The notes under the pieces were generated by a model. That model was not told the origin of the DNA and ran no database searches. It saw only the letters and a list, made by a program, of their open reading frames with translations. The position numbers were made by a program, and so were the translations under genes. From an uncultured Acidobacteriota bacterium (GTDB lineage Bacteria > Acidobacteriota > UBA6911), in assembly GCA_964586015.1 (NCBI GenBank), contig CAZPHK010000004.1:1-61101 (forward strand): a DNA stretch of 61,101 nt, given 5' to 3'. This document shows positions 51,088 to 61,101 of the stretch, in pieces; within the stretch, counting starts at the first letter, position 1; each line of letters opens with the position of its first letter.

Positions 51088-51187
51088 AAATTGCTGAATA
51101 CGGAAACAGGTCGGATATTTATAAATGCCCGGCTACCGGAGCATTGTATCGATTAAAGGACTGAATGGGTCCTGAAGGGTGAATACC

Positions 51188-53254
51188 ATGATTAAGAGAC
51201 TGGTTACTCTTTTTATTTTCTGGGTGTTGTGCGGAGTTGCGTGGCTGCATGCGGAAGCGACTCTAAATGAGATCCGTACCGCATCCAATGACGTTCTGGT
51301 GGCCTATATCTCGGGCGATTCGGCCGATGTGAATGCGGTCGATATCGAGGATAAATCACAATGGAAGATCAACGGGGAACCGGCATCCGAGATTTTCATT
51401 TACGCCGTCGCCGCCGATCCCTGCGACTATCATGTTTACCTGAAGACCTCCCGTCTGGTGGAAGGAGCGCAGTACAGGGTAGAGACCCCCTATGGGGAAA
51501 AGACTATCCGTTTTAATGAAAGGGAGATTTTCTGCGAAGCCGTTAAGACCAACCAGGTCGGCTACAGCGCGTTTTCCAGGACGCGCTATGCGAATTTTGC
51601 CGTCTGGCTCGGAACCGGCGGCGCCCGAAAGATAGAGGGAATTCTGCCTTCCTATGAAGTTTTTGAAACGGAAACGAATAAAACCGTTGCTTCCGGGGCA
51701 TTGACCGGGGTCGGGAAAGATGAGGGCTCCGGAGATTATGTTTACCGCATAGACCTGGCGTCCGTACCCGAGGGGGGACCCTATAAGATTGCGGTTCAGG
51801 GCTATGGGAGTTCCCATCCCTTCGGAGTTGGGGGCGAGTTTTCCAGAAGGCTTGCCTATGTTCTTTTTCGCGCACAGTATTTGCAGCGCTGCGGATGTCC
51901 CATCCTCAAACCGGATATCCGGAAACATGCCTGCCATACGCTGATCTACGATGTCGACGGTCCGATCGGAGAGGCGAATATCGATGTGAAAGGGGACGAG
52001 CGGACCTTCAGCGTATATGGAGGATATCACGACGCCGGCGATGCGGACCGCCGGGCGTATCACATGTCCAATCCCGCTGTCAATCTGATGATATATGAAG
52101 CGTTCCCGGAATATTTTACGGACGGTCAATACGACATTCCCGGCGATTTCGACGAAGATTATCGCATCCTGAATTATACGAACGGCATTCCGGATCTTAT
52201 TGACGAAGCGGCATGGGGAACCCTGGCATGGGAGTATCTGCAGAACGAAGACGGGAGCATCCATTTCGGAACGGAAACGAGCGGATACCCGGAACCTTTC
52301 GCGGCGCCTCTGGATCTGGACGACAAGAAGTACGGGACGGTCAAAACAGACGCCCGCGCCACAAGCGCGGGGGCGGGCCTGTTCATGCACCTGGCGCGCA
52401 TTATAAAGCCGTATGATTCGAAGCGTTCCGAGGCGCTTGTAAAACGGGCGGAAAAAGCCATGGAGTTCGGAAGCGAGACCATGGCGGATCCGGAAAGGCT
52501 GTACTATCACATCCAGCGCTATCTTCTGCTGCGGGATGAATCGGATCATCGGAAAATCAGGGAACTGTACCGGATAGCCGGCGGTTTAAATGAGAATTTA
52601 TACCTGACCCCGGGATACTCGTTGAATGACGACAAGTTCGACAATCCGGCGTACATACTCTCCTATATCCTGGAAAATGAGGTTCCCACCGATCGGGAAA
52701 TAGTGGACTTTTTCAAACAGGCGATAAAGGATGCCGCAGACGCGAACATCGCCGAATTGCGCCGCCATGCCTATCCTGTCGGCAACAATCCCGATGGCAG
52801 AGCCTGGGGGCATAACGTGCGTCAGCCGCAGTATGCCGCAGCATCCCTGCTTCAATGGAGGCTGTCGGGAGACCGGAGCTATTTTGACGCCGCTTCCGAA
52901 CTGATGGATTACAAAACGGGGCTGAATCCGATCGGCATCAGTTTCATCACCGGCCTCGGATTTCGCCAGGTTCACAATGTTCACGACCGTGAAAGCGCCT
53001 ATACGATATCCAGAGGATGGGGACCGAAGCCCGGAATAACGGTGTTCGGGCCCGGAGTTGCAGGATGGAGCCGCAACATAAAGGTTATCCCGCCGATAAA
53101 CGAACTGCCGAAAGAGCGCCAGTATGTGGACGACAGGGAAATCATATCCTTCAACGAGTTTACAATATTTGAAACCATGCATTACGACGCACTCTACACG
53201 GTGCTTGCCGGCGGCGGGAAATGGAACGGAAAGGACCCTTTCCATTCCCGTTGA
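51188..53254 (+). CDS. Glycoside hydrolase family 9 with Ig-like N-terminal domain(s)
   Basis: Signal peptide; KTNQVGY; GGYHDAGD catalytic motif; HDRES; NEFTI catalytic Glu region. Confidence 0.85.
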   Translation: MIKRLVTLFIFWVLCGVAWLHAEATLNEIRTASNDVLVAYISGDSADVNAVDIEDKSQWKINGEPASEIFIYAVAADPCDYHVYLKTSRLVEGAQYRVETPYGEKTIRFNEREIFCEAVKTNQVGYSAFSRTRYANFAVWLGTGGARKIEGILPSYEVFETETNKTVASGALTGVGKDEGSGDYVYRIDLASVPEGGPYKIAVQGYGSSHPFGVGGEFSRRLAYVLFRAQYLQRCGCPILKPDIRKHACHTLIYDVDGPIGEANIDVKGDERTFSVYGGYHDAGDADRRAYHMSNPAVNLMIYEAFPEYFTDGQYDIPGDFDEDYRILNYTNGIPDLIDEAAWGTLAWEYLQNEDGSIHFGTETSGYPEPFAAPLDLDDKKYGTVKTDARATSAGAGLFMHLARIIKPYDSKRSEALVKRAEKAMEFGSETMADPERLYYHIQRYLLLRDESDHRKIRELYRIAGGLNENLYLTPGYSLNDDKFDNPAYILSYILENEVPTDREIVDFFKQAIKDAADANIAELRRHAYPVGNNPDGRAWGHNVRQPQYAAASLLQWRLSGDRSYFDAASELMDYKTGLNPIGISFITGLGFRQVHNVHDRESAYTISRGWGPKPGITVFGPGVAGWSRNIKVIPPINELPKERQYVDDREIISFNEFTIFETMHYDALYTVLAGGGKWNGKDPFHSR

Positions 53255-53519
53255 ATGAATTTTCACGGCTCTGTCGGCTGTCTTCGGGTCTGACAGGAGA
53301 AATTTTCCGAAAAATCCGGACCTGTTTTTCTGCCCACAGGCCGCTTGACAGAAGCGCCAAGAAGTACAATAGTTACTTCATATCCGCAATCCGCCAAGAA
53401 AGAGGTATGGCTGCAGGTTGCGGAATGCTCCATCTTCAGTTTCCGATAAAACTATCTAATGGTAGTGTCTTATAAAAAATAGAAACGATTGACTATATCA
53501 CCCGAAAGCTGGGTGGTTC

Positions 53520-56042
53520 ATGGAGGGCACCTTGTCACCACGAAATAAAATCCGACGGCGGGTGCGTCCCGGTAGCTCGACTCCAATCACGCAGACTCTT
53601 CCAAGGATAATTCTGAGATTCAAAAGTGGATCCGTATTGCCCTACAAAGATGACGCGCAACTCTACCTGGACAAAACCAATACGCTATTCTGGGAGCAGA
53701 TATCGGCTCAGTACGGCCCGATGAGCCTCCGGAGAGTTTTCACCTGGGTAGCGCCCGAGAGAATTCAAAAATTAGCACTGCAGGCACAGCACTTCTCTCC
53801 ATCCTATGTAGCGCCTGATTTTCTGAAGTACTATGTTGTCGACTGCCCCCCCGGAGCGCATCCCGAAAAACTGGTAAAAGCGTTCAGGGAGTGGCAAATC
53901 GTCGAACACGCCTATGTTAGCAGGCCTCTCGAAGTTGCTTCCCCCGTCAACGATACGGATGAAATGGGCACTCGAGGTCATTATTTTTTTCAGGGATACC
54001 TGAAGGCGGCGCCGGACGGAGTGGATGCGATCTATGTCTGGCCGAAGACGTACGGAGGGGGGTTCGCCGGCGGCAGCGGGTACAACCAAAGCCTGATGGA
54101 CATAGAGCTGGGATGGACGCTGGAACATGAAGATCTGATTCCCCACGGCATTCCGGCTCCATTGACCGGCGTAAATTCTATTGACATCAACTACAGATAC
54201 CACGGCACCAGGGTCCTTGGAGTGATCGCCGCCGCGGACAATGACCGGGGCTGTCTGGGAATCGTTCCTGAGATCGGGTCCATTAAAGTGGCTTCCGTAA
54301 AAAACGACTCGCTTGAAGACGTTCTTATGCTGGCAATCGACTGCCTCTCACCGGGCGATGTTTTGTTGATTGAACTGCATGCCAAAGATGACCATCCGCC
54401 AAATCCGTTAATGTGGGTCCCTGTAGAAGCCGACGACGCTGTTTTCGAATTGATTCAGCTTGCTTCCAGCAACAAGATAGTGGTGATCGAAGCGGCGGGT
54501 ACGCAACCCATCCTTGACGGCCTCAACCTCGATACGTTTGAAGTAGACGGTCCCGGCGGCGTGAAATCGCGGGTCTTCGATCGCAACGGTGGGGCATCCG
54601 CAGGATTTCGCGATTCGGGCGCTGTTTTGGTCGGCGGCTCTCAAGTGGCCATGAACGGAAATGCCCACCCTCGCGAACCGCACTGCAACTTTGGAAGTCG
54701 TGTGGATTGTTATGGACTGGGAGAGAAAGTTACAACGTGCGATTCGACCGCTTCTTCAAATCCTGCAACGAAGCTCTATACAGACCAATTTTGGGGTACG
54801 TCATCGGGTTCAGCCATTATTGCCGGCGCTGCGTTGGCAATACAGGGGCTTTCGGAAAACAACGCCGGATTCCGATACGATCCGCCGAAGCTCCGAAGCA
54901 TCCTGTCCGATCCCTCCACAGGCACTCCTTCAGTAAACAATGAGATAGGCGTCATGCCCGACCTCAGAAAGATCAGCCGGGATACTCTGGGTATTGCGCC
55001 GGACACATACATGCGCGACTGGATCGGCGATACCGGGGACCCTCACAACGGCCCCCTGTCGTGCAGTCCGGACATTATCTTGCGCACAAGCCAAATCGGG
55101 CTTCCCCAGACTCCCCAACAAGTCTACGGTGAAGGGAGCGGCACCGAAAACAGCCAGAGCTTGAGCGACGAAGCGGATCCTCAGCAGGACAATTACCTGT
55201 ACCTTCGCGTCAGGAACCGTGGGGCATACCCGGCCGCCAATGTACAGGTCAAGGTGTATTGGGCGACTGTGTCCACGCTTCCAATGCCCAGTGACTGGAA
55301 ACTCATAGGATCCAGCGTAATTCCTAATGTGCCTCCGGGCAACATTCTGACCGTCTCCGATGCGATTACGTGGTCGAAGAACGATATACCGGGTCCGGGC
55401 CACTACTGTTTTATCGCTTTGATCGACACTCCGGATGATCCTGCCCCTGATCCCGCGGTGTTGACGGATTGGACATCCTTTCTTGGCTATGTCTCGGAAA
55501 ACAACAATGTGACATGGAGAAACTTCAATGTCGTAATGCTGCAGCCATCGCCTCCCCTGCCGATGGCTTTGGTTCCAGCCGGTCCCGACAGCCAGGATCA
55601 GTATGCAGCACTCCCGTTTGAAATCTCAGGCCCTGCCGGTCGGGGATTTGAAGCGAACATTGAGATCTGCGCCAAACTTCCTGTGGGCTCCAAACTCTGG
55701 CTGGAGGCGCGTTCGCCTCTCGCCAAACAGCTCTGCGATGAGTCGCTTTTTAATTTGGAGTCGAAGGATGGCGAGATCACCAGCGTTCGGCTTAATCCCC
55801 ATGGTCTCAATGCACTGAATCCAATCCTACGGCAGCCAGGAGTCCGTATGCCTCTGAGACTGCAGGTGCACATACCGGGAAGCAGCGACATTACCGGCTC
55901 TTACGAGTGTTATGTCCGGCAGCTTTATAAAAACCGGGAAATAGGACGTATTACATGGAGATTAGTCAAGCCGCTTCAGAAAAAAGCAAGGAAACCTAAA
56001 AAACAACAAAAAGGCAGATCCAGGAAGCGCAATCTCAAATGA
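53520..56042 (+). CDS. S8 (subtilisin-like) serine peptidase with large C-terminal beta domain; no evident signal peptide
   Basis: Triad motifs MDIELGW (Asp), HGTRVLG (His), WGTSSGSAIIAG (Ser); C-terminal SPDIILR, NYLYLRVRNRG, HYCF, NNVTWRN. Confidence 0.9.
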   Translation: MEGTLSPRNKIRRRVRPGSSTPITQTLPRIILRFKSGSVLPYKDDAQLYLDKTNTLFWEQISAQYGPMSLRRVFTWVAPERIQKLALQAQHFSPSYVAPDFLKYYVVDCPPGAHPEKLVKAFREWQIVEHAYVSRPLEVASPVNDTDEMGTRGHYFFQGYLKAAPDGVDAIYVWPKTYGGGFAGGSGYNQSLMDIELGWTLEHEDLIPHGIPAPLTGVNSIDINYRYHGTRVLGVIAAADNDRGCLGIVPEIGSIKVASVKNDSLEDVLMLAIDCLSPGDVLLIELHAKDDHPPNPLMWVPVEADDAVFELIQLASSNKIVVIEAAGTQPILDGLNLDTFEVDGPGGVKSRVFDRNGGASAGFRDSGAVLVGGSQVAMNGNAHPREPHCNFGSRVDCYGLGEKVTTCDSTASSNPATKLYTDQFWGTSSGSAIIAGAALAIQGLSENNAGFRYDPPKLRSILSDPSTGTPSVNNEIGVMPDLRKISRDTLGIAPDTYMRDWIGDTGDPHNGPLSCSPDIILRTSQIGLPQTPQQVYGEGSGTENSQSLSDEADPQQDNYLYLRVRNRGAYPAANVQVKVYWATVSTLPMPSDWKLIGSSVIPNVPPGNILTVSDAITWSKNDIPGPGHYCFIALIDTPDDPAPDPAVLTDWTSFLGYVSENNNVTWRNFNVVMLQPSPPLPMALVPAGPDSQDQYAALPFEISGPAGRGFEANIEICAKLPVGSKLWLEARSPLAKQLCDESLFNLESKDGEITSVRLNPHGLNALNPILRQPGVRMPLRLQVHIPGSSDITGSYECYVRQLYKNREIGRITWRLVKPLQKKARKPKKQQKGRSRKRNLK

Positions 56043-56082
56043 GTTGCCTTAACTGCCTTTCATCCTATGAAATGAGGAGAAA

Positions 56083-56448
56083 ATGATCATGGGAACAGAC
56101 ATAACTCCAGAGGAAGCATATGACATGGCCCTGGTGGCCTTCGGCTCCGGCACTGGGGGACTTTATATTAAGCCGGAAGTAGCAAAAGAACTTAAAGACC
56201 GCTTTTTGGAGAATTTTGTAACTCAGATTACGAACGACCCCGGCCAATGGGATACACAAAAACTGTTCATACTCGAGTGCGCCAGGGCAATCGGGCGTCT
56301 GTCGGCTCAAAAGGCCGTAGCCAGGGGATCCTTTGCAATCAACTGGGAGGATGACGCCAAAGGTGCCATGGAGATGGTCGTAAGCCGATATGGAGGTCCT
56401 GTGCCGGGCGCCTATTGCCAGAATCCTACTGCCCAAGATTCTGATTAA
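56083..56448 (+). CDS. Hypothetical 121-aa protein, histone-fold-like
   Basis: GAGGAG RBS; in-operon spacing (40 bp and 24 bp); helical pattern aligns by eye to archaeal histones. The CDS is well supported; the fold call is tentative. Confidence 0.7.
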   Translation: MIMGTDITPEEAYDMALVAFGSGTGGLYIKPEVAKELKDRFLENFVTQITNDPGQWDTQKLFILECARAIGRLSAQKAVARGSFAINWEDDAKGAMEMVVSRYGGPVPGAYCQNPTAQDSD

Positions 56449-56472: not shown

Positions 56473-59079
56473 TTGGCGATTCCGTTTTGGGTCGTAGTAT
56501 GTATGATGCTGGCCGGCGTAAAAATCCTGGCTGGTCTTCTGGGATTTGCCGTGACTGTAGGAGTGCCGGACCTGCCTCTGCTAAACGGATGGCACCTGAC
56601 GCTGCTTCTCGCATTTGGCGTCACGACGTTAGTTCTCATCTTTGCCGGCAGGCGCGACACGAGGTCCGTCTATCTAGGAATTGTCTTTTTACTGATTGCC
56701 TCCGCATTCGCCCACCCCGGGATTGAGCGGCTGGCATACCTGCCGCAGGGCATTTTAGCCCGATGCGGCAGCATCCTTTTCCATGTGCATCCCGACGCGT
56801 TTGTCTCCTTCTTCTTCTGGGTTTTCGTTCGGAAGTTTCCCCGTGCAACGACAAGTTTTCGGGCTGAGCATGTAGTAAGGCGGACAACACAGACGGCCCT
56901 GATCATCGGCGCGGTATTATTCGCGTTGAATTGCCTGATGCTGTTTGCTTCTCTTCTGTCGTTCCCACTAGCTTTCGCTCGCACCCTGAGCCTTTTCAGC
57001 CGGACCGCCACTATTCCGATCTACTGGACGCTTCTGTTTGCGGTGGCCTTGCCCGCCGTGCCGTTTGCCCTCTGGAAGACCCGTTTTGCCCCAGTCGACG
57101 AGCAGCGAAGGGTCCGCGTTTTTATTTCAGCCATACTGATCGGCATTGTCCCGTTGATGATTGCGGTCATGCTCGAGGCGCTGATTCCATCATACCGCGA
57201 CCTGGTTTTACAACCCGAAGCAAGGCATATAAGCGGGCTGATTCTCTACCCTCTTCTGCTCCTGGTTCCCCTGCTGACGGCTTACTCCGTGCTGGTTCAT
57301 CGTGTTCTGGATGTTCAGCTGATTATCCGGAGGGCTGTCCAGTACGCTCTTGCCCGCTCGGTGCTTGTTGCGGTCGTGAGCGCACCCGCGTTCCTTCTGA
57401 TCTATTACATATACACGCACCGGGATCAGACTATTGCAGTTTTTTTTTCCGCTCCAAATCTTTTATGGTTCGGTGCCGCGATTGCGCTGGGGCTGGCTGG
57501 ACTTCGATGGAGACACGCTTTGTTCGACTCTCTGGATCGCCGTTTTTTTCGCGAGCAATACGACGCGCGGCAGATACTCGCGCTGCTTGCGGACAAGTGC
57601 AAGGAAGCCCGCGATCTTGAGAAACTGAGAATTGTGTTGACCACGGAAGTCAACAAGGCCCTGCACCTTGAATCGTTTGTAGTGCTTGTCGCGGATTTTG
57701 CCGTTTCAAAAATGATAGCCCTTAGCGGCCGTTTACGGGCACTCTCATGCAGTTCGAGCCTGGCAATGCGCATGGAGAAAACCGCGGAGCCTCTTGAAAT
57801 CAGTTTTGATGATGAAGCGTCGGCTTTTCGCCGGTTGCCCCTTGATGAACAGCAATGGCTCGTGGACGGCGGAGTGCGTCTGCTTGTCCCGCTGCTTGCA
57901 TCTGACGGAACATTGCTCGGCCTGCTGGCCGCGGGCGAAAAGAAAAGTGAGTTGCCTTTCTCGAAGGAAGACAGGCTCCTGCTGAAGGCCATCGCCTCTT
58001 CAGCCGCTCTAACAGTCGAGCTCAGGCAGAGCAAGGAGTTGGTCGCTGAAATGTCTCCAGTAGAAGCAGTCGAGTGCAAACGCTGCGGCAACCTGTATCC
58101 GGCAGGCACGGCGGCCTGCAAATCCTGCGGCAGAGAACTCGTGGAGGCAATCGTCCCTTATACTTTAATGGGAAAATTCCGGTTCGAGAAACAGATTGGG
58201 GCCGGAGGCATGGGAGTCGTTTATCGCGCGGTTGATTTGGTGCTTGACCGTGTGGTTGCAATCAAGACGCTTCCAATGGCTTCACCGGAACGCTCCTTCA
58301 GGCTGCGCAGGGAGGCGCGCGTTATTGCTTCGGTCAAACATCCCAACCTGGCGCTGATATTCGGCGCCGAAACCTGGCGCGGCTTGCCCATGCTCGTTTT
58401 TGAGCTTCTGGAAGGAGGCACTCTCGCGGACAGGCTTCGTAAAGCCCGTTTGCCGATACAGGAGACTCTGAATCTTGGAGTCATACTCGCGGAGGTGCTT
58501 GAGTATCTGCATTCCAGGAGCATGCTCCACCGTGATATCAAACCCGGCAACATCGGGTATCAATTGCCGGGGGATGTTCCGAAACTGATGGATTTCGGAT
58601 TGGCGCATCTTTTAACGGAGGCGCGTCCAGAGATCTCTCACGAACAATCGTCCGACGCAGCCGGCCTTCCGGATGGATCGACGGCGACTACTCTGGCATA
58701 CGTCCCGTCGCATTTCGGCTCAGGACGGCTGCTTGGAACGCCGGCGTACCTGTCGCCTGAAGCGATTGAAGGAAAGCCCGCGGATTCCTCTTTTGATCTC
58801 TGGTCTGCGGCAATTGTTTTATATGAATCGCTGGCCGGCAACAATCCGCTGAAAAGAAATACGATTCCTGAAACGCTTGAGTGCATAGTTTCAGTGCCGG
58901 TGCCGGATGTCCGGGATTTTGTCCCGGAATGTCCGGACGATGTCGCGCAGTTTTTTAAGGATGCTTTATCAAGAGATCCGCGCCGGCGTCCCGGAAGCGC
59001 CAGGCAGCTCAAGCTGAGGCTTTGCGATCTGCAGACGGGAGGCATTCACCGGGAAACCCGGGTCACCCCGGCCGGATAA
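56473..59079 (+). CDS. Multi-pass membrane Ser/Thr protein kinase with GAF-like domain and Zn ribbon
   Basis: About 9-10 TM segments; GAF-like LLVPL...LGLL...ELPFSKEDRLLL; CKRC...CKSC; IGAGGMGVVY, VAIK, HRDIKPGN, DFG, GTPAYLSPE, DLWS; GGAG plus TTG start. Confidence 0.93.
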   Translation: MAIPFWVVVCMMLAGVKILAGLLGFAVTVGVPDLPLLNGWHLTLLLAFGVTTLVLIFAGRRDTRSVYLGIVFLLIASAFAHPGIERLAYLPQGILARCGSILFHVHPDAFVSFFFWVFVRKFPRATTSFRAEHVVRRTTQTALIIGAVLFALNCLMLFASLLSFPLAFARTLSLFSRTATIPIYWTLLFAVALPAVPFALWKTRFAPVDEQRRVRVFISAILIGIVPLMIAVMLEALIPSYRDLVLQPEARHISGLILYPLLLLVPLLTAYSVLVHRVLDVQLIIRRAVQYALARSVLVAVVSAPAFLLIYYIYTHRDQTIAVFFSAPNLLWFGAAIALGLAGLRWRHALFDSLDRRFFREQYDARQILALLADKCKEARDLEKLRIVLTTEVNKALHLESFVVLVADFAVSKMIALSGRLRALSCSSSLAMRMEKTAEPLEISFDDEASAFRRLPLDEQQWLVDGGVRLLVPLLASDGTLLGLLAAGEKKSELPFSKEDRLLLKAIASSAALTVELRQSKELVAEMSPVEAVECKRCGNLYPAGTAACKSCGRELVEAIVPYTLMGKFRFEKQIGAGGMGVVYRAVDLVLDRVVAIKTLPMASPERSFRLRREARVIASVKHPNLALIFGAETWRGLPMLVFELLEGGTLADRLRKARLPIQETLNLGVILAEVLEYLHSRSMLHRDIKPGNIGYQLPGDVPKLMDFGLAHLLTEARPEISHEQSSDAAGLPDGSTATTLAYVPSHFGSGRLLGTPAYLSPEAIEGKPADSSFDLWSAAIVLYESLAGNNPLKRNTIPETLECIVSVPVPDVRDFVPECPDDVAQFFKDALSRDPRRRPGSARQLKLRLCDLQTGGIHRETRVTPAG

Positions 59080-59181: not shown

Positions 59182-59991
59182 TCAATAGTTTTCAGACGGG
59201 CCGCCGTTTTGATGGCTGTATTCTTTAGCAAAAAGAGCCGCTCCCAGGGCGGCCGTCAACTGCGGATTTTCGGGGCATAATACTCTCTTGCCTAATTCTT
59301 CTTCCAGGGCTTTAACAACTCCGGTATTTTTCGCCACTCCACCGGAAAATACGATGGGTTCCCCGTACTCAATCTGCCCTCCGGCCCCCATACCGACAAC
59401 TCTTTTGGCAATGGCCCTGCTGATGCCGCAGGCGATGTCCTCTTTTGCCCGATTCTCCGATAGAAGGGAAATTATCTCCGACTCGGCGAATACGGTGCAG
59501 ACGCTGCTCAGAGTACAGGGCTGCCTGGACTTTAAGGCAAACGGACCGAGTTCATCGATGGGGAGATTCAGTATTCTTTCGGTCAGAACTTCCAGAAATC
59601 GTCCGGTTCCGGCAGCGCACTTATCGTTCATCTCGAACCGTACAGCCACTCCGTTTCCGTCCAGTTCGATGACTTTACTGTCCTGCCCGCCGATATCAAT
59701 AATAGTTCTCGCTTCCGGAAATAGTAGTTTTGTTCCCCTGGCGTGGCACACGATCTCGGGCAGCACCTTATCGGACCGGCTGAAAGCTCTGCGCCCGTAG
59801 CCGGTGGATACAATATATTTTATGCCGTCGGTTGATTCGCCGGTTTTGTCCAGAGCCAGCTTAAGAGCTTCACTCCCGCTCTCCCCGCGGTCATAGCGGG
59901 TTCTTATCAGCGAAAATGCCAGGATCTCTTCTTCCTCATTAATGATCGCCGCTTTTGTGGTAACGGAACCTATATCAATACCCGCAAACAT
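59182..59991 (-). CDS. 2-hydroxyacyl-CoA dehydratase activator (HgdC/HadI-like ASKHA ATPase)
   Basis: GIDIGSVTTK, STGYGR, IIDIGGQDSK, MNDKCAAGTGRFLE, CTVFAESE, GGVAKN. Confidence 0.95.
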   Translation of the reverse strand: MFAGIDIGSVTTKAAIINEEEEILAFSLIRTRYDRGESGSEALKLALDKTGESTDGIKYIVSTGYGRRAFSRSDKVLPEIVCHARGTKLLFPEARTIIDIGGQDSKVIELDGNGVAVRFEMNDKCAAGTGRFLEVLTERILNLPIDELGPFALKSRQPCTLSSVCTVFAESEIISLLSENRAKEDIACGISRAIAKRVVGMGAGGQIEYGEPIVFSGGVAKNTGVVKALEEELGKRVLCPENPQLTAALGAALFAKEYSHQNGGPSENY

Positions 59992-59998
59992 GTCTGGA

Positions 59999-61101
59999 TC
60001 AGGCTTTCCTTATCTTCATTATTTCGCATATGCTTTCAATTCTTGTTCGCAAAGCTTCCGGACTGTAGTCTCTGTCCTCCCAATTGTCTCCCTCGATGTA
60101 AAATACAGGCAATTGCGTCTTTTCTTCCACCATTCTGCCCAATAGTCTGTGGCTGCTGCCGAGCCAGCGGTCGAAATCCATTAAACCGAAAACCATCCCG
60201 TCGAATTTGTGCGTCACAATCTTTTCGCAGATTTGTTCGGCCTGATAGCCGGGATTGACCATTCCGGAAGTTCTGAGCCAGCCTTCAGCCGCGGCCATAT
60301 AAGGATCATCGAAAGACGGCGGCTTCAGCTGTTTCTCCGTAAGTATGAAAAACTCGCTGAGGGGTATGCCGACGCCGTTTTCCTCAAACATCCTGGCTAC
60401 CCAGGGAACGGACGGGTGGATACTGTAAATCAACAATTTGGGGGCACCCTGGGGCAATATGCCTGTCTTGTTGCGCACCCGCTGCTTAACCTCTTTCAGG
60501 GTAATATCCAGCGCCTCCTCCATGGATTCAATGCCGGTGTTGAGCGGCGTGAACAGGCCTTCCCAGAAAAAACGTCCGCTGACGGCGCCCAGAGGCTGCG
60601 GGTCTGCGCTCATCAGACGGCCCAATTCCGATACTTTCGCCGCATATCTCTGCCAGAATTCGATGACCTTCTGTATCGTTTCCTCCGATACCTTAACCCC
60701 GATTTCTTTCTGGACGGATTCGAATCCGTCTTTCATTTGGGCGGCCAGATACTCTACCCTTTCGATAACCTCATCCTCCACCGTACCCATGGGCTGGTCA
60801 TGGGGCAGGCGTGTGACGTACGTTTTCCACTCGGGATCATGGTAGAGTCGGATGAATTCGTCTGTTTTAGGGCCTTCATCGCATACGAATCCCCATATCC
60901 AGTTTATATCCGGGGAGGGAATAATGCCCAGCCTGCGGGCGGCATATCGTGTTTTATTCAGGGCGCAATGACGGCAGCCGTAAGGGATTCCGGCTTTCTC
61001 GGCCTCTTCCAGAAAAGGGGCAAGTTTGTGAAAAAAGCTGTTCATCACAAAGGTGATGAATATATCCGGAAAGGAAACAAAGATTTTTTCCGGAGCCGTC
61101 A
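59999..61101 (-). CDS. 2-hydroxyacyl-CoA dehydratase subunit (HgdA/B-like), 5'-truncated by window edge
   Basis: Frame stays open to the window end (TAPEKIFVSFP...); YGCRHC, GFVCDEGPK, FDGMVFG, PVFYIEGD, RTRIESI; 7 bp from the activator. Confidence 0.85.
   Translation of the reverse strand, partial: TAPEKIFVSFPDIFITFVMNSFFHKLAPFLEEAEKAGIPYGCRHCALNKTRYAARRLGIIPSPDINWIWGFVCDEGPKTDEFIRLYHDPEWKTYVTRLPHDQPMGTVEDEVIERVEYLAAQMKDGFESVQKEIGVKVSEETIQKVIEFWQRYAAKVSELGRLMSADPQPLGAVSGRFFWEGLFTPLNTGIESMEEALDITLKEVKQRVRNKTGILPQGAPKLLIYSIHPSVPWVARMFEENGVGIPLSEFFILTEKQLKPPSFDDPYMAAAEGWLRTSGMVNPGYQAEQICEKIVTHKFDGMVFGLMDFDRWLGSSHRLLGRMVEEKTQLPVFYIEGDNWEDRDYSPEALRTRIESICEIMKIRKA

What the first reader, a model, noticed from the sequence alone, without database searches (positions are those of the whole stretch)
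56083..56448. 121-aa ORF resembles a histone fold with a split alpha2 and no DNA-binding residues
Seen, aligned by eye to archaeal HMfB from memory: LYIKPEVAKEL~ERVSDDARITL; ILECARAIGRLSAQKAVARG~ILEEMGRDIASEAIKLARHAG; SFAINWEDDAKGA~RKTIKAEDIELA. An insertion (TNDPGQWDTQK) interrupts alpha2. The RKT loop is replaced by SFA and the protein is net acidic (17 D/E vs 11 K/R by count). The tail ends GGPVPGAYCQNPTAQDSD. Known: bacterial histone-fold proteins exist. Inference: a non-chromatin histone-fold variant used as a signalling or dimerisation substrate, with the Cys-containing tail a possible cleavage or modification site.
Basis: partly seen in the sequence, partly recalled or inferred. Interest (0 to 1): 0.8.

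Follow-up and report, generated by a model that had tools for sequence, protein, structure and literature searches.

The report
Small helical partner of membrane kinase
The ORF is a real gene for a small acidic protein from an unnamed family that is almost always encoded next to one type of membrane Ser/Thr kinase; it is built from the same helix-strand-helix unit as histones but is predicted to fold back on itself rather than form a histone-type dimer.

Summary
It is a real gene: at least 51 representative clusters are related, and I collected 118 domain sequences that are non-redundant at 80%. None has a Pfam or NCBIfam hit or a name.

An AlphaFold2 model built on 52 sequences (pLDDT 90.3, pTM 0.83) shows two helix-strand-helix units joined by a hinge at residues 52-54, with one short strand in each unit. 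That is the closed topology of an AAA+ C-domain (lid), not the continuous-alpha2 swapped histone dimer.

Sequence resemblance to histones is marginal and local. The best PDB profile hit is the M. kandleri histone-fold protein (E 0.0044-0.0098), and hhalign against HMfB gives 23-27% probability. Foldseek finds nothing significant.

The main finding is genomic. 52 of 54 informative single-domain members lie beside an orthologue of the downstream gene, a ~10-TM, GAF, zinc-ribbon, Hanks kinase, and all other neighbours vary. Tandem-doublet members stand alone. The S8 peptidase is linked only in the window's own clade.

Most likely this is a dedicated cytoplasmic partner of that kinase, either regulator or substrate. 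Its flexible tail carries a near-invariant cysteine. The family is acidic, so a chromatin role is unlikely.

The parts
56083..56448 (+). Small ORF (121 aa from the first ATG; probably 119 aa from the ATG at 56089). Member of an unnamed family with a predicted closed double helix-strand-helix fold.
   Evidence: ORF and sequence. Family of at least 51 representative clusters. AF2 model pLDDT 90.3. No Pfam, NCBIfam or source name.
56074..56079 (+). Shine-Dalgarno-like GAGGAG upstream of the small ORF.
   Evidence: Read directly from the sequence. It lies 9 nt before the ATG at 56089.
56140..56160 (+). Glycine-rich L1 loop FGSGTGG (residues 20-26). It lies between helix 1 and the first short strand and is the most conserved motif of the family.
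   Evidence: G21, G23 and G25 are >=90% conserved in both singles and doublets. The loop lies between H9-23 and the strand at 28-29.
56236..56244 (+).
   Evidence: The model has H31-51 and H55-80. The family alignment shows length variation here, from deletions to insertions of about 25 residues.
56284..56298 (+). RAIGR motif (residues 68-72) in the long third helix. G71 is invariant; R72 is 81% conserved in singles and 100% in doublet halves; R68 is conserved at >=80%.
56392..56445 (+). Low-confidence, probably flexible C-terminal tail (residues 104-121). It contains the near-invariant Cys112 (codon 56416-56418).
   Evidence: pLDDT falls to 64 and then 43 in the last blocks. C112 is 91-93% conserved, with recurrent tail forms TPxCP, [WFY]C and CxxC.
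56473..59079 (+). Partner gene of 868 aa. It has a ~10-TM N-terminal domain (1-345), a GAF domain (about 393-516), a CxxC...CxxC zinc ribbon (535-552) and a Hanks Ser/Thr kinase domain (570-843) with all catalytic motifs. The TTG start is preceded by GGAGA.
   Evidence: Pfam and NCBIfam. TM scan and motifs. 155 columns are >=90% conserved in 28 orthologues, including the four Zn-ribbon Cys, K, HRD and DFG. Adjacent to the small gene in 52 of 54 informative lineages.
53520..56042 (+). S8 subtilase-like peptidase (840 aa), 40 nt upstream of the small ORF. It is a clade-specific neighbour and not part of the family-wide module.
   Evidence: PF00082, E 1.8e-5. The S8, small gene, kinase order is conserved in the P0002 contigs and in an Acidobacteriota MAG. 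Upstream genes differ in the other clades.
53345..53373 (+). Promoter-like site (TTGACA-17-AATAGT) upstream of the S8 gene. It is a possible start of a three-gene transcript.
   Evidence: Only a consensus match; such sites are not enriched over shuffles.

Best explanation
The ORF encodes a small (~119 aa), acidic, cytoplasmic protein of a previously unnamed family. It folds as a closed four-helix domain made of two helix-strand-helix units joined by a hinge, followed by a flexible tail that carries a near-invariant cysteine. It is co-transcribed with, and functionally dedicated to, the gene that follows it. That gene encodes a polytopic membrane sensor with GAF, zinc-ribbon and an active Hanks-type Ser/Thr kinase domain.

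I propose that the small protein binds the cytoplasmic part of this kinase as an accessory subunit, either a regulator or co-sensor or the kinase's dedicated phospho-acceptor. Docking would use the conserved surface formed by the glycine-rich L1 loop, the R68/G71/R72 helix face and the strand pair. The Cys-bearing tail would be the reactive or modified element.

Shown here: the gene is real, the family exists, the predicted fold, the acidity, the near-obligate gene pairing, and the kinase's intact catalytic motifs.

Inferred: physical binding, which face binds, the direction of regulation, and any chemistry at the cysteine.

It is not a chromatin histone. Its relation to the histone fold is at the level of the shared helix-strand-helix unit.
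For: Gene and family. There are 52 hits at E<=1e-3 among 1.84 billion representatives, and I collected 118 domain sequences non-redundant at 80%. The conserved motifs are shared by all clades.

Fold. The AF2 model has pLDDT 90.3 and pTM 0.83 as a monomer, with H9-23, a strand at 28-29, H31-51, H55-80, a strand at 85-86 and H88-103. This matches the definition of the closed C-domain arrangement in PMC1847821.

Linkage. Eight of eight members looked up individually sit beside an orthologue of the window kinase (32-43% identity). In the 80-locus metagenome sample, 52 of 54 informative non-redundant single-domain genes do the same. The kinase usually lies 30-200 nt downstream, is sometimes overlapping, and comes first in L018 and apparently in L062. 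Every other neighbour differs between clades. In the reciprocal test, three of three kinase-first look-ups have a family member directly upstream.

Kinase activity. The G-loop, VAIK, HRD, DFG and SPE motifs are present and conserved.

Against a chromatin role. The window protein has pI 4.57 and the family median is about 5.9.
Against: No Ser or Thr is invariant in the family (T24 61-93%, T109 about 58%), which weakens a single conserved phospho-site. Tandem-doublet members and two single-domain members (L083, L098) occur without the kinase, so the domain can function without an adjacent kinase gene. The one apparent fusion to the kinase (P0076/L103) may be an assembly artefact.
Confidence: 0.62

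Rival explanations
1. First reader's view. It is a genuine histone-fold protein that forms a head-to-tail handshake dimer, with alpha2 merely kinked by an insertion, and it is used outside chromatin as a dimerisation or signalling module.
For: The top PDB profile hit is the M. kandleri histone-fold doublet 1F1E (E 0.0098 and 0.0044), with two co-linear pieces matching L1 plus the start of alpha2, then the end of alpha2, L2 and alpha3. hhalign prefers HMfB (23-27% probability) to an FtsH lid (about 1%). Single helix-strand-helix units superpose on viral histone folds at 1.1-1.2 A over 39-44 residues. Natural tandem doublets exist, reminiscent of doublet histones.
Against: The monomer model is confident and compact (pTM 0.83), with a hinge and one strand in each unit, which is the closed form. 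The hinge tolerates insertions of up to about 25 residues. No Pfam histone family is hit by any of 52 members. The Foldseek top hits are AAA+ lids and none is significant. All histone similarities are local and marginal.
Confidence: 0.13
2. Thiol-redox or metal co-sensor. The near-invariant tail cysteine (CxxC in some members) senses oxidation or binds a metal, and this state is relayed to the GAF-kinase.
For: C112 is 91-93% conserved in a flexible tail. 16 of 118 members have CxxC there. In the large AFGQGTG sub-clade, a DsbD_N protein and an AhpC/Redoxin protein lie upstream on the same strand in 32 of 63 loci with enough upstream sequence.
Against: The redox neighbours are confined to one sub-clade whose Redoxins are 62-86% identical, so the synteny may reflect descent only, and the gap to the small gene is often 150-500 nt. 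The window's own clade has an S8 peptidase there instead. A single cysteine is a weak predictor. The kinase has no additional conserved cysteine to pair with it beyond its own complete zinc ribbon.
Confidence: 0.2
3. Ribosomal-peptide-like precursor. A folded leader domain carries a short Cys-containing core that is modified with help from the kinase and released by the neighbouring S8 protease, as in LanP/LanL-type lanthipeptide clusters.
For: The window clade has the order S8 protease, small ORF, kinase. The tail reads ...YGG|PVPGAYC... with a Gly-Gly. Many members have Thr three residues before the Cys (TPxC, about 58%). The kinase domain gives a weak NCBIfam hit to class IV lanthionine synthetase, through its kinase domain only.
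Against: The kinase protein has no lyase or LanC cyclase domain. NCBIfam, whose library I recall (not checked here) includes the NHLP and Nif11 leader models, gave no hit at all for the small protein at E<=1. The tail is short, has one conserved Cys and is not hypervariable. The window's own tail lacks the Thr at position -3. S8 linkage is absent from all other clades. The 100-residue domain is itself the conserved part.
Confidence: 0.04
4. Nucleoid-associated or DNA-binding output protein controlled by the kinase.
For: It has the helix-strand-helix architecture, whose strand-pair face binds DNA in histones. About 20% of family members have pI above 8.5.
Against: The window protein has pI 4.57 and the family median is about 5.9. 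The L2 RKT triplet is replaced by SFA. Pfam gave no hit at all at E<=1, and therefore no HTH or other DNA-binding domain.
Confidence: 0.04

Closest known systems
C-domain (lid) of AAA+ ATPases, e.g. proteasomal Rpt subunits, RuvBL1/2, FtsH, Lon
   Same: Both have the same predicted topology: two consecutive helix-strand-helix units joined by a hinge, with one short strand in each unit (definition in PMC1847821). These domains dominate the Foldseek list. Isolated Rpt C-domains reach target-normalised TM 0.61-0.63.
   Different: This protein is free-standing and has no P-loop ATPase domain in the protein or in its neighbours. Helices 2 and 3 are much longer (21 and 26 residues), forming a protruding hairpin. 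It has an extra Cys tail. No Foldseek hit is significant (best E 0.67). Sequence profiles do not match: Pfam lid families appear once each, below threshold, and hhalign to the FtsH lid gives about 1% probability.
Archaeal histones and histone-fold proteins (HMfB; M. kandleri HMk, PDB 1F1E)
   Same: The building block is shared. The second unit aligns to the end of alpha2, L2 and alpha3, including the two conserved alanines and the glycine before L2 (A78~A47, G82~G51, A95~A63). The L1 region aligns as well (FGQGTG..RVS against FRQGIGERRLS). 1F1E is the best profile hit in the PDB (E 0.0044-0.0098). Natural tandem doublets exist in both.
   Different: Alpha2 is interrupted by a variable hinge and the helix pair totals 47 residues, against about 28 in a histone. 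The predicted form is a closed monomer rather than a swapped dimer. The protein is acidic and lacks the RKT DNA-contact triplet. There is no Pfam histone-family hit. The genomic context is a kinase operon, whereas model histone genes are described as single-gene operons (PMC11390915).
Prokaryotic histone variants encoded in conserved multi-gene operons (RdgC histones, IHF histones; Schwab et al. 2024, PMC11390915)
   Same: In both cases a small helix-strand-helix-based protein consistently sits next to one specific partner gene, which suggests functional coupling.
   Different: Those proteins are bona fide histone-fold dimers retrieved from the InterPro histone-fold superfamily, and their partners are DNA-related (RdgC-like, IHF-like). 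Here the partner is a membrane Ser/Thr kinase and the fold is predicted closed. In that paper the word 'kinase' occurs only in a methods sentence on polynucleotide kinase labelling, so it describes no kinase-linked histone class.
Accessory proteins encoded beside bacterial Hanks-type kinases (for example FHA-domain substrates, or the Streptomyces AfsK-binding protein KbpA; from my own knowledge, not tested here)
   Same: The concept is the same: a small cytoplasmic protein encoded beside, and dedicated to, one Ser/Thr kinase as either substrate or regulator.
   Different: There is no sequence or fold relationship. Pfam and NCBIfam gave no hit of any kind for the small protein, so it has no FHA domain. 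The partner kinase architecture (10 TM, GAF, Zn ribbon) is also different.

Membership tests
Histone fold (archaeal/eukaryotic histones, CBFD_NFYB_HMF, TAFs) | Three helices with one long continuous central alpha2 (about 28 residues). | tested here: not met
   The AF2 model (pLDDT 90.3) has a break at residues 52-54 between H31-51 and H55-80. The family shows indels of up to about 25 residues at this point.
Histone fold (archaeal/eukaryotic histones, CBFD_NFYB_HMF, TAFs) | Obligate head-to-tail handshake dimer with intermolecular L1-L2 strand pairing. | not testable with these tools
   No multimer prediction and no coordinates were available. Indirectly, the monomer model has its only two strands at 28-29 and 85-86 and pTM 0.83, which implies intramolecular pairing.
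Histone fold (archaeal/eukaryotic histones, CBFD_NFYB_HMF, TAFs) | Significant match to histone-family sequence profiles. | tested here: inconclusive
   No Pfam histone family is hit by any of 52 members at E<=10. The family profile's best PDB hit is histone-fold protein 1F1E at E 0.0098 and 0.0044, with HMfB at E about 0.8-1.3. hhalign to HMfB gives 26-31 columns at 23-27% probability.
Histone fold (archaeal/eukaryotic histones, CBFD_NFYB_HMF, TAFs) | Basic DNA-contact residues in L1 and L2 (such as the L2 R-K-T) and a basic overall charge. | tested here: not met
   SFA replaces RKT in the hhalign alignment. The window protein has pI 4.57 and the family median is about 5.9, against HMfB at 9.59.
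AAA+ ATPase C-domain (lid) | Four-helix domain of two helix-strand-helix units joined by a hinge, with an intramolecular strand pair. | tested here: met
   The secondary-structure pattern of the confident model fits, compared with the definition in PMC1847821. The caveat is that I inferred this from the DSSP string and not from coordinates.
AAA+ ATPase C-domain (lid) | Located directly C-terminal to a P-loop AAA+ ATPase core in the same polypeptide. | tested here: not met
   The protein is free-standing at 110-130 aa. There is no ATPase domain in it or consistently next to it.
AAA+ ATPase C-domain (lid) | Significant structural or sequence match to known lids. | tested here: inconclusive
   Lids top the Foldseek list, but the best is E 0.67 with TMq about 0.4 and TMt up to 0.63. 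Pfam AAA_lid_2, AAA_lid_3 and Cdc6_lid each appear in one member at E 0.03-0.15. hhalign to the FtsH lid gives about 1% probability.
DUF1931 (bacterial histone-like, Aq_328 type) | Match to the Pfam DUF1931 profile. | tested here: not met
   There is no hit in the window protein at E<=1 or in any of 52 members at E<=10.
Lanthipeptide / NHLP- or Nif11-type RiPP precursor with LanL-like kinase and LanP-like S8 protease | Lyase and LanC cyclase domains in the kinase-bearing enzyme; a recognised leader family; a hypervariable Cys/Ser/Thr-rich core. | tested here: not met
   The kinase protein has only TM, GAF, Zn-ribbon and Pkinase domains. The small protein has no NCBIfam or Pfam hit of any kind. 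The tail is short, with one conserved Cys. S8 linkage occurs in one clade only.

The most novel reading that the evidence does not exclude
This family is a living, free-standing 'un-swapped' relative of the histone fold. It would be a closed double helix-strand-helix protein whose sequence lies nearer to archaeal histones than to AAA+ lids. That is the kind of intermediate that the Alva-Lupas domain-swap scenario for the origin of histones predicts. Here it would have been recruited as the regulatory subunit of a membrane Ser/Thr kinase, with natural tandem doublets paralleling doublet histones.
Probability: 0.18. Interest if true: 0.8.

Novelty: new variant of a known kind. Interest (0 to 1): 0.55.

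Why it matters
The finding matters for two reasons.

First, for bacterial signalling. It defines an unannotated two-gene module: a small double helix-strand-helix protein paired with a ~10-TM, GAF, zinc-ribbon Hanks kinase. The module is widespread in metagenome contigs. The few records that carry a taxon name, for the small gene or for the kinase's membrane domain, are Acidobacteriota and Gemmatimonadetes. Ser/Thr kinase signalling is, to my knowledge, little studied in these phyla. The pairing gives a concrete and testable handle on how one such kinase is regulated or what it phosphorylates.

Second, for protein evolution. A stand-alone, closed helix-strand-helix pair with marginal but reproducible sequence affinity to archaeal histones bears directly on the proposal that the histone fold arose from an AAA+ C-domain-like ancestor by 3D domain swapping. 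Shortening its hinge would be a direct experimental test of that idea.

If the histone similarity is only convergent, the family still adds a new small-protein partner class for bacterial kinases.

Tried and rejected
- Single-sequence AF2 gave pLDDT 55.6 and uninformative Foldseek hits. The alignment-based model superseded it.
- The search for related loci with the broad alignments A1 and A2 failed because no stretch was conserved enough.
- I designed degenerate DNA patterns, but they either covered too few members or would have given hundreds to thousands of chance hits, so I did not run them.
- I rejected the S8 peptidase as part of the core system. It is conserved only in the window clade and absent elsewhere.
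- No hidden copy of the small domain exists inside the kinase.
- The doublet loci share no conserved neighbour.
- The C-terminal extensions fused to the domain in P0042 and L098, and the gene downstream in L083, gave no informative Pfam hit.
- The 'TM+GAF only' homologues turned out to be kinases split by a transposase or by frameshifts.
- I judged the apparent small-domain-to-kinase fusion P0076 unreliable after inspecting the junction.
- The test of whether the small gene follows the membrane domain into PP2C- or PDZ-output relatives was nearly uninformative. One locus sits at a contig edge, and one PDZ locus lacks the gene.
- Promoter and terminator scans were not above the shuffle expectation.
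- Model coordinates are not exposed, so I could not measure contacts between the conserved residues or the hinge geometry.
- A spurious-ORF explanation, including the antisense 123-aa ORF at 56065-56436, is ruled out by the family-wide conservation of the + strand frame.
Full report
**Observation**

The window has an ORF at 56083-56448 on the + strand that encodes 121 aa. The composition count of 17 D/E against 11 K/R is exact and gives pI 4.57.

A GAGGAG Shine-Dalgarno sequence lies at 56074-56079. It is 3 nt from the first ATG and 9 nt from the second (56089), and the public gene call is the 119-aa form (P0001). The real product is therefore probably 119 aa.

The flanking genes are on the same strand with short gaps. 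An 840-aa S8 subtilase-like peptidase ends 40 nt upstream. An 868-aa protein starts 24 nt downstream, and it has about ten transmembrane segments, a GAF domain, a CxxC...CxxC zinc ribbon and a Hanks-type Ser/Thr kinase domain.

**Is it a real gene, and of which family?**

Pfam, NCBIfam and a PDB sequence search gave nothing for the single sequence. The word-indexed search of 5.8 billion proteins found only one non-self relative, P0002 at 59% identity.

The exhaustive phmmer search of 1.84 billion cluster representatives found 52 hits at E<=1e-3, of which one (P0040) is a spurious repeat protein. Most are 100-150 aa. Eight are about 190-245 aa and contain two full copies of the domain in tandem.

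After adding sequences from the context searches, I had 118 domain sequences non-redundant at 80%: 90 from single-domain proteins and 28 doublet halves.

The consensus is AFGxGxG..RVS..A..L...Y....(variable)...W....VLE..RAIGRLAA..A...G...I...D...A...V.....(T)P.C(P). In the 102-sequence alignment G71 is invariant and A19, G21, G23, G25, W56, L64, V99 and C112 are each conserved at 90% or more; R72 is 81% conserved in singles and 100% in doublet halves.

No member has a Pfam domain or any name other than 'hypothetical protein'. This is a real, conserved and unannotated family.

**Fold**

AlphaFold2 with the 52-sequence alignment gave a confident monomer model, with mean pLDDT 90.3, pTM 0.83 and all five models at 89.3 or above. 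Its elements are:
- helix 9-23;
- a two-residue strand at 28-29;
- helix 31-51;
- a break at 52-54;
- helix 55-80;
- a strand at 85-86;
- helix 88-103;
- a tail whose confidence drops to 64 and then 43.

The only two strands in the model must pair with each other, so the L1 and L2 loops meet within one chain.

Alva et al. (PMC1847821) define the relevant distinction. [quoted passage not shown] In C-domains a hinge connects the motifs and the beta-bridge is intramolecular, giving a closed four-helix bundle. In histones the two central helices are continuous and the bridge forms between two chains, giving a swapped dimer.

The model is therefore of the closed C-domain type. This agrees with the family alignment, where the hinge region ranges from deletions to insertions of about 25 residues. 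The middle of a continuous histone alpha2 could not tolerate that variation.

I inferred the closed topology from the DSSP string and pTM, not from measured contacts. I also could not run a multimer prediction.

**Structure and profile comparisons**

- *Foldseek against the PDB.* No significant match was found; the best is E 0.67 with query-normalised TM about 0.4. The list is dominated by AAA+ lids (Rvb1/2, Rpt1-6, Lon, RuvB). Isolated Rpt C-domains reach target-normalised TM 0.61-0.63. A few histone-fold entries appear lower down (Scm3-Cse4/H4, SOS histone domain, Melbournevirus).
- *Foldseek against viral models.* Nothing is significant. Single helix-strand-helix units superpose on histone folds at 1.1-1.2 A over 39-44 residues.
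- *Family profile against the PDB.* The best hit among 177,635 PDB sequences is the M. kandleri histone-fold doublet 1F1E. It scores E 0.0098 with 38 sequences and 0.0044 with 102. The match comes in two co-linear pieces: FGQGTG..RVS..A against FRQGIGERRLSQDA, and RAIGRLAAQKATARGSTTI..EDVE.A against EELGEKAAEYADEDGRKTVQGEDVEKA. HMfB follows at E about 0.8-1.3 and FtsH lids at about 1.5-2.8.
- *hhalign of the family profile.* HMfB, whose sequence I verified as identical to 1A7W, aligns over 26-31 columns at 23-27% probability. The E. coli FtsH lid, verified as identical to 1LV7, aligns over 23-24 columns at about 1%.
- *Pfam scan of all 52 members at E<=10.* No family recurs. Bromo_TP, TAF10, Cdc6_lid, AAA_lid_3 and AAA_lid_2 each appear once, below threshold.

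In summary, the helix-strand-helix unit looks histone-like in sequence, marginally but reproducibly. The overall topology looks like an AAA+ C-domain. Membership of either family is not established.

**Genomic context, the strongest result**

The relative P0002 sits on eight short contigs in the order S8 peptidase, small gene, kinase, with 59-69% identity to the window proteins. The one relative in the GTDB representative genomes is an uncultured Acidobacteriota MAG. It has the same three genes at 58%, 64% and 65% identity, while the outer flanks differ.

More distant members (25-36% identity) were looked up one at a time. In each, the small gene is adjacent to an orthologue of the window kinase at 32-43% identity, full length wherever the contig allows. 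The upstream gene differs each time: GH2, TP_methylase, short-chain dehydrogenase, or a sigma-54 activator. In L018 the order is reversed, with the kinase's stop overlapping the small gene's start.

A metagenome scan seeded on the AFGQGTG branch returned 80 loci. After collapsing at 90% identity there are 61 single-domain genes. Of these, 6 lack enough flank and 1 (L073) is a truncated doublet. Of the remaining 54, 52 have the kinase orthologue adjacent, counting L023, whose downstream hit is weak at E 5.5e-5. The exceptions are L083 and L098, and in L098 the domain is fused to an unknown C-terminal extension.

In contrast, 12 loci with tandem doublets have no such kinase and share no conserved neighbour at all.

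As a reciprocal test, I looked up three homologues of the kinase's membrane domain that were found independently. All three have a family member immediately upstream. In one of them (L101) the locus is disrupted by transposases.

In another (L103, P0076) the small domain is in frame with the kinase. The junction is only 9 codons long and contains out-of-frame stops and an in-frame TTG start. The assembly also has another frameshift in the same gene. I therefore do not rely on this fusion.

The kinase orthologues are highly conserved. 155 columns are >=90% conserved in 28 sequences, including residues in the membrane domain, a DRxFFREQYDA juxtamembrane motif, the four zinc-ribbon cysteines, and the catalytic Lys, HRD and DFG. 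The kinase is presumably active.

Its membrane domain also occurs with PP2C or PDZ outputs in more distant relatives. The single PDZ locus I could read has no small gene, and the PP2C locus is at a contig edge.

**Other neighbours**

The S8 peptidase is specific to the window's clade.

In the AFGQGTG sub-clade, a DsbD_N-domain protein and an AhpC/Redoxin protein lie upstream on the same strand, in 32 of 63 loci with enough upstream sequence. An O-methyltransferase lies after the kinase on the opposite strand. Those Redoxins are 62-86% identical to one another, and the gaps to the small gene are often 150-500 nt. This is most simply synteny by descent, so it is only a weak hint of a thiol-redox connection.

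**Interpretation**

The only feature shared by all clades of single-domain members is adjacency to, and probable co-transcription with, this one kinase type. I therefore conclude that the small protein is a dedicated cytoplasmic partner of the kinase.

The small protein has no hydrophobic N-terminal stretch that would suggest a signal peptide or membrane segment, by my reading of its sequence. About ten transmembrane segments would place both ends of the kinase on the same side of the membrane. Both points are inferences.

Whether the small protein is a regulator, a co-sensor or the phospho-acceptor is not resolved. No Ser or Thr is invariant, which argues mildly against one universal phospho-site. 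However, T109 in TPxCP occurs in about 58% of members, and the tail is predicted to be flexible.

The most conserved residues are the Gly-rich L1 loop, W56 at the hinge, R68/G71/R72 on helix 3 and C112 in the tail. They are equally conserved in the kinase-less doublets. They therefore probably define the domain's intrinsic activity, such as a binding surface or a ligand or thiol site, rather than only a kinase interface. The doublets suggest that the domain works in pairs.

A chromatin role is unlikely. The family is acidic and the L2 DNA-contact triplet is missing.

**Comparison with the known and novelty**

The closest structural class is the AAA+ C-domain. The closest sequence signal is to archaeal histone folds.

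The survey of prokaryotic histone families (PMC11390915) describes histones in conserved operons with RdgC-like or IHF-like partners. It reports nothing linked to kinases, and it drew on proteins already classified in the InterPro histone-fold superfamily. This family would not have been in that set, because no member has a histone-family hit in Pfam.

I rate the finding as a new variant of a known kind: a free-standing double helix-strand-helix domain in a new, kinase-coupled context.

The most novel reading not excluded is that it is an extant un-swapped relative of the histone fold. I give that a probability of about 0.18, because the sequence evidence (E about 0.004-0.01) is marginal and local.

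**Verdict**

Interest is 0.55.

Noticed in passing
window 56083-56091: There are two in-frame ATGs (56083 and 56089). The Shine-Dalgarno GAGGAG at 56074-56079 is better spaced for the second, and the public gene call is 119 aa, so the 121-aa ORF probably overstates the product by two residues.
   Followed up: partly
window 53520-56042: The S8 subtilase-like peptidase is 840 aa and has only a weak PF00082 hit. Asp, His and Ser motifs are visible by eye. The C-terminal ~350 residues have no Pfam hit, and the protein ends in a Lys/Arg-rich tail (KKARKPKKQQKGRSRKRNLK). I saw no obvious signal peptide. It is linked to the small gene only in the window's clade.
   Followed up: partly
window 56473-57507 (kinase residues 1-345): The ~10-TM N-terminal domain of the kinase matches no Pfam family but is conserved. 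More distant relatives combine it with PP2C phosphatase (SpoIIE) or PDZ domains (P0109, P0110, P0101, P0104, P0108). It looks like an undescribed modular membrane sensor domain.
   Followed up: partly
loci L021, L022, L024, L040, L046, L051, L053, L057, L058, L066, L070, L078 (and L073): Tandem-doublet versions of the domain (about 230 aa, two full copies) are never next to the kinase and share no conserved neighbour, unlike the single-domain genes.
   Followed up: yes
L026:2006-4518 and about 40 related loci: In the AFGQGTG sub-clade, a DsbD_N-domain protein and an AhpC/TSA-Redoxin protein lie upstream of the small gene on the same strand. An O-methyltransferase follows the kinase on the opposite strand. 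This may be a thiol-redox connection or only synteny by descent.
   Followed up: partly
L103:5001-6611 (P0076): The small domain is in the same reading frame as the kinase membrane domain, which looks like a natural fusion. The junction is 9 codons long with out-of-frame TGA stops and an in-frame TTG, and the long-read assembly has another frameshift in the kinase, so this may be an artefact.
   Followed up: partly
L101:4452-9112: This kinase locus is disrupted. A Transposase_mut gene is inserted between the TM-GAF part and the kinase domain, other IS fragments lie upstream, and the small gene is truncated. The module appears to be decaying in this genome.
   Followed up: no
L100:101-1920: The small gene is split into two overlapping ORFs, probably by a frameshift. 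A kinase catalytic domain ends upstream of it and a kinase N-terminal domain starts downstream, which suggests two modules in tandem.
   Followed up: no
L098:572-1360 and P0042: These single-domain members lack the tail cysteine and carry unrelated C-terminal extensions of about 110-170 residues with no Pfam hit. L098 has no adjacent kinase.
   Followed up: partly
window 56065-56436 (- strand): A 123-aa antisense ORF almost exactly shadows the small gene. I found no evidence that it is coding. The conservation is explained by the + strand frame.
   Followed up: no
window 59182-61048 (- strand) and 51179-53254 (+): The neighbouring genes appear unrelated to the module. They are a BcrAD/BadFG-type activator ATPase with an HGD-D-type 2-hydroxyacyl-CoA dehydratase subunit, and a GH9 glycoside hydrolase with a CelD_N domain. 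Further upstream are an M48 peptidase, an FAD oxidoreductase and a methyltransferase.
   Followed up: no
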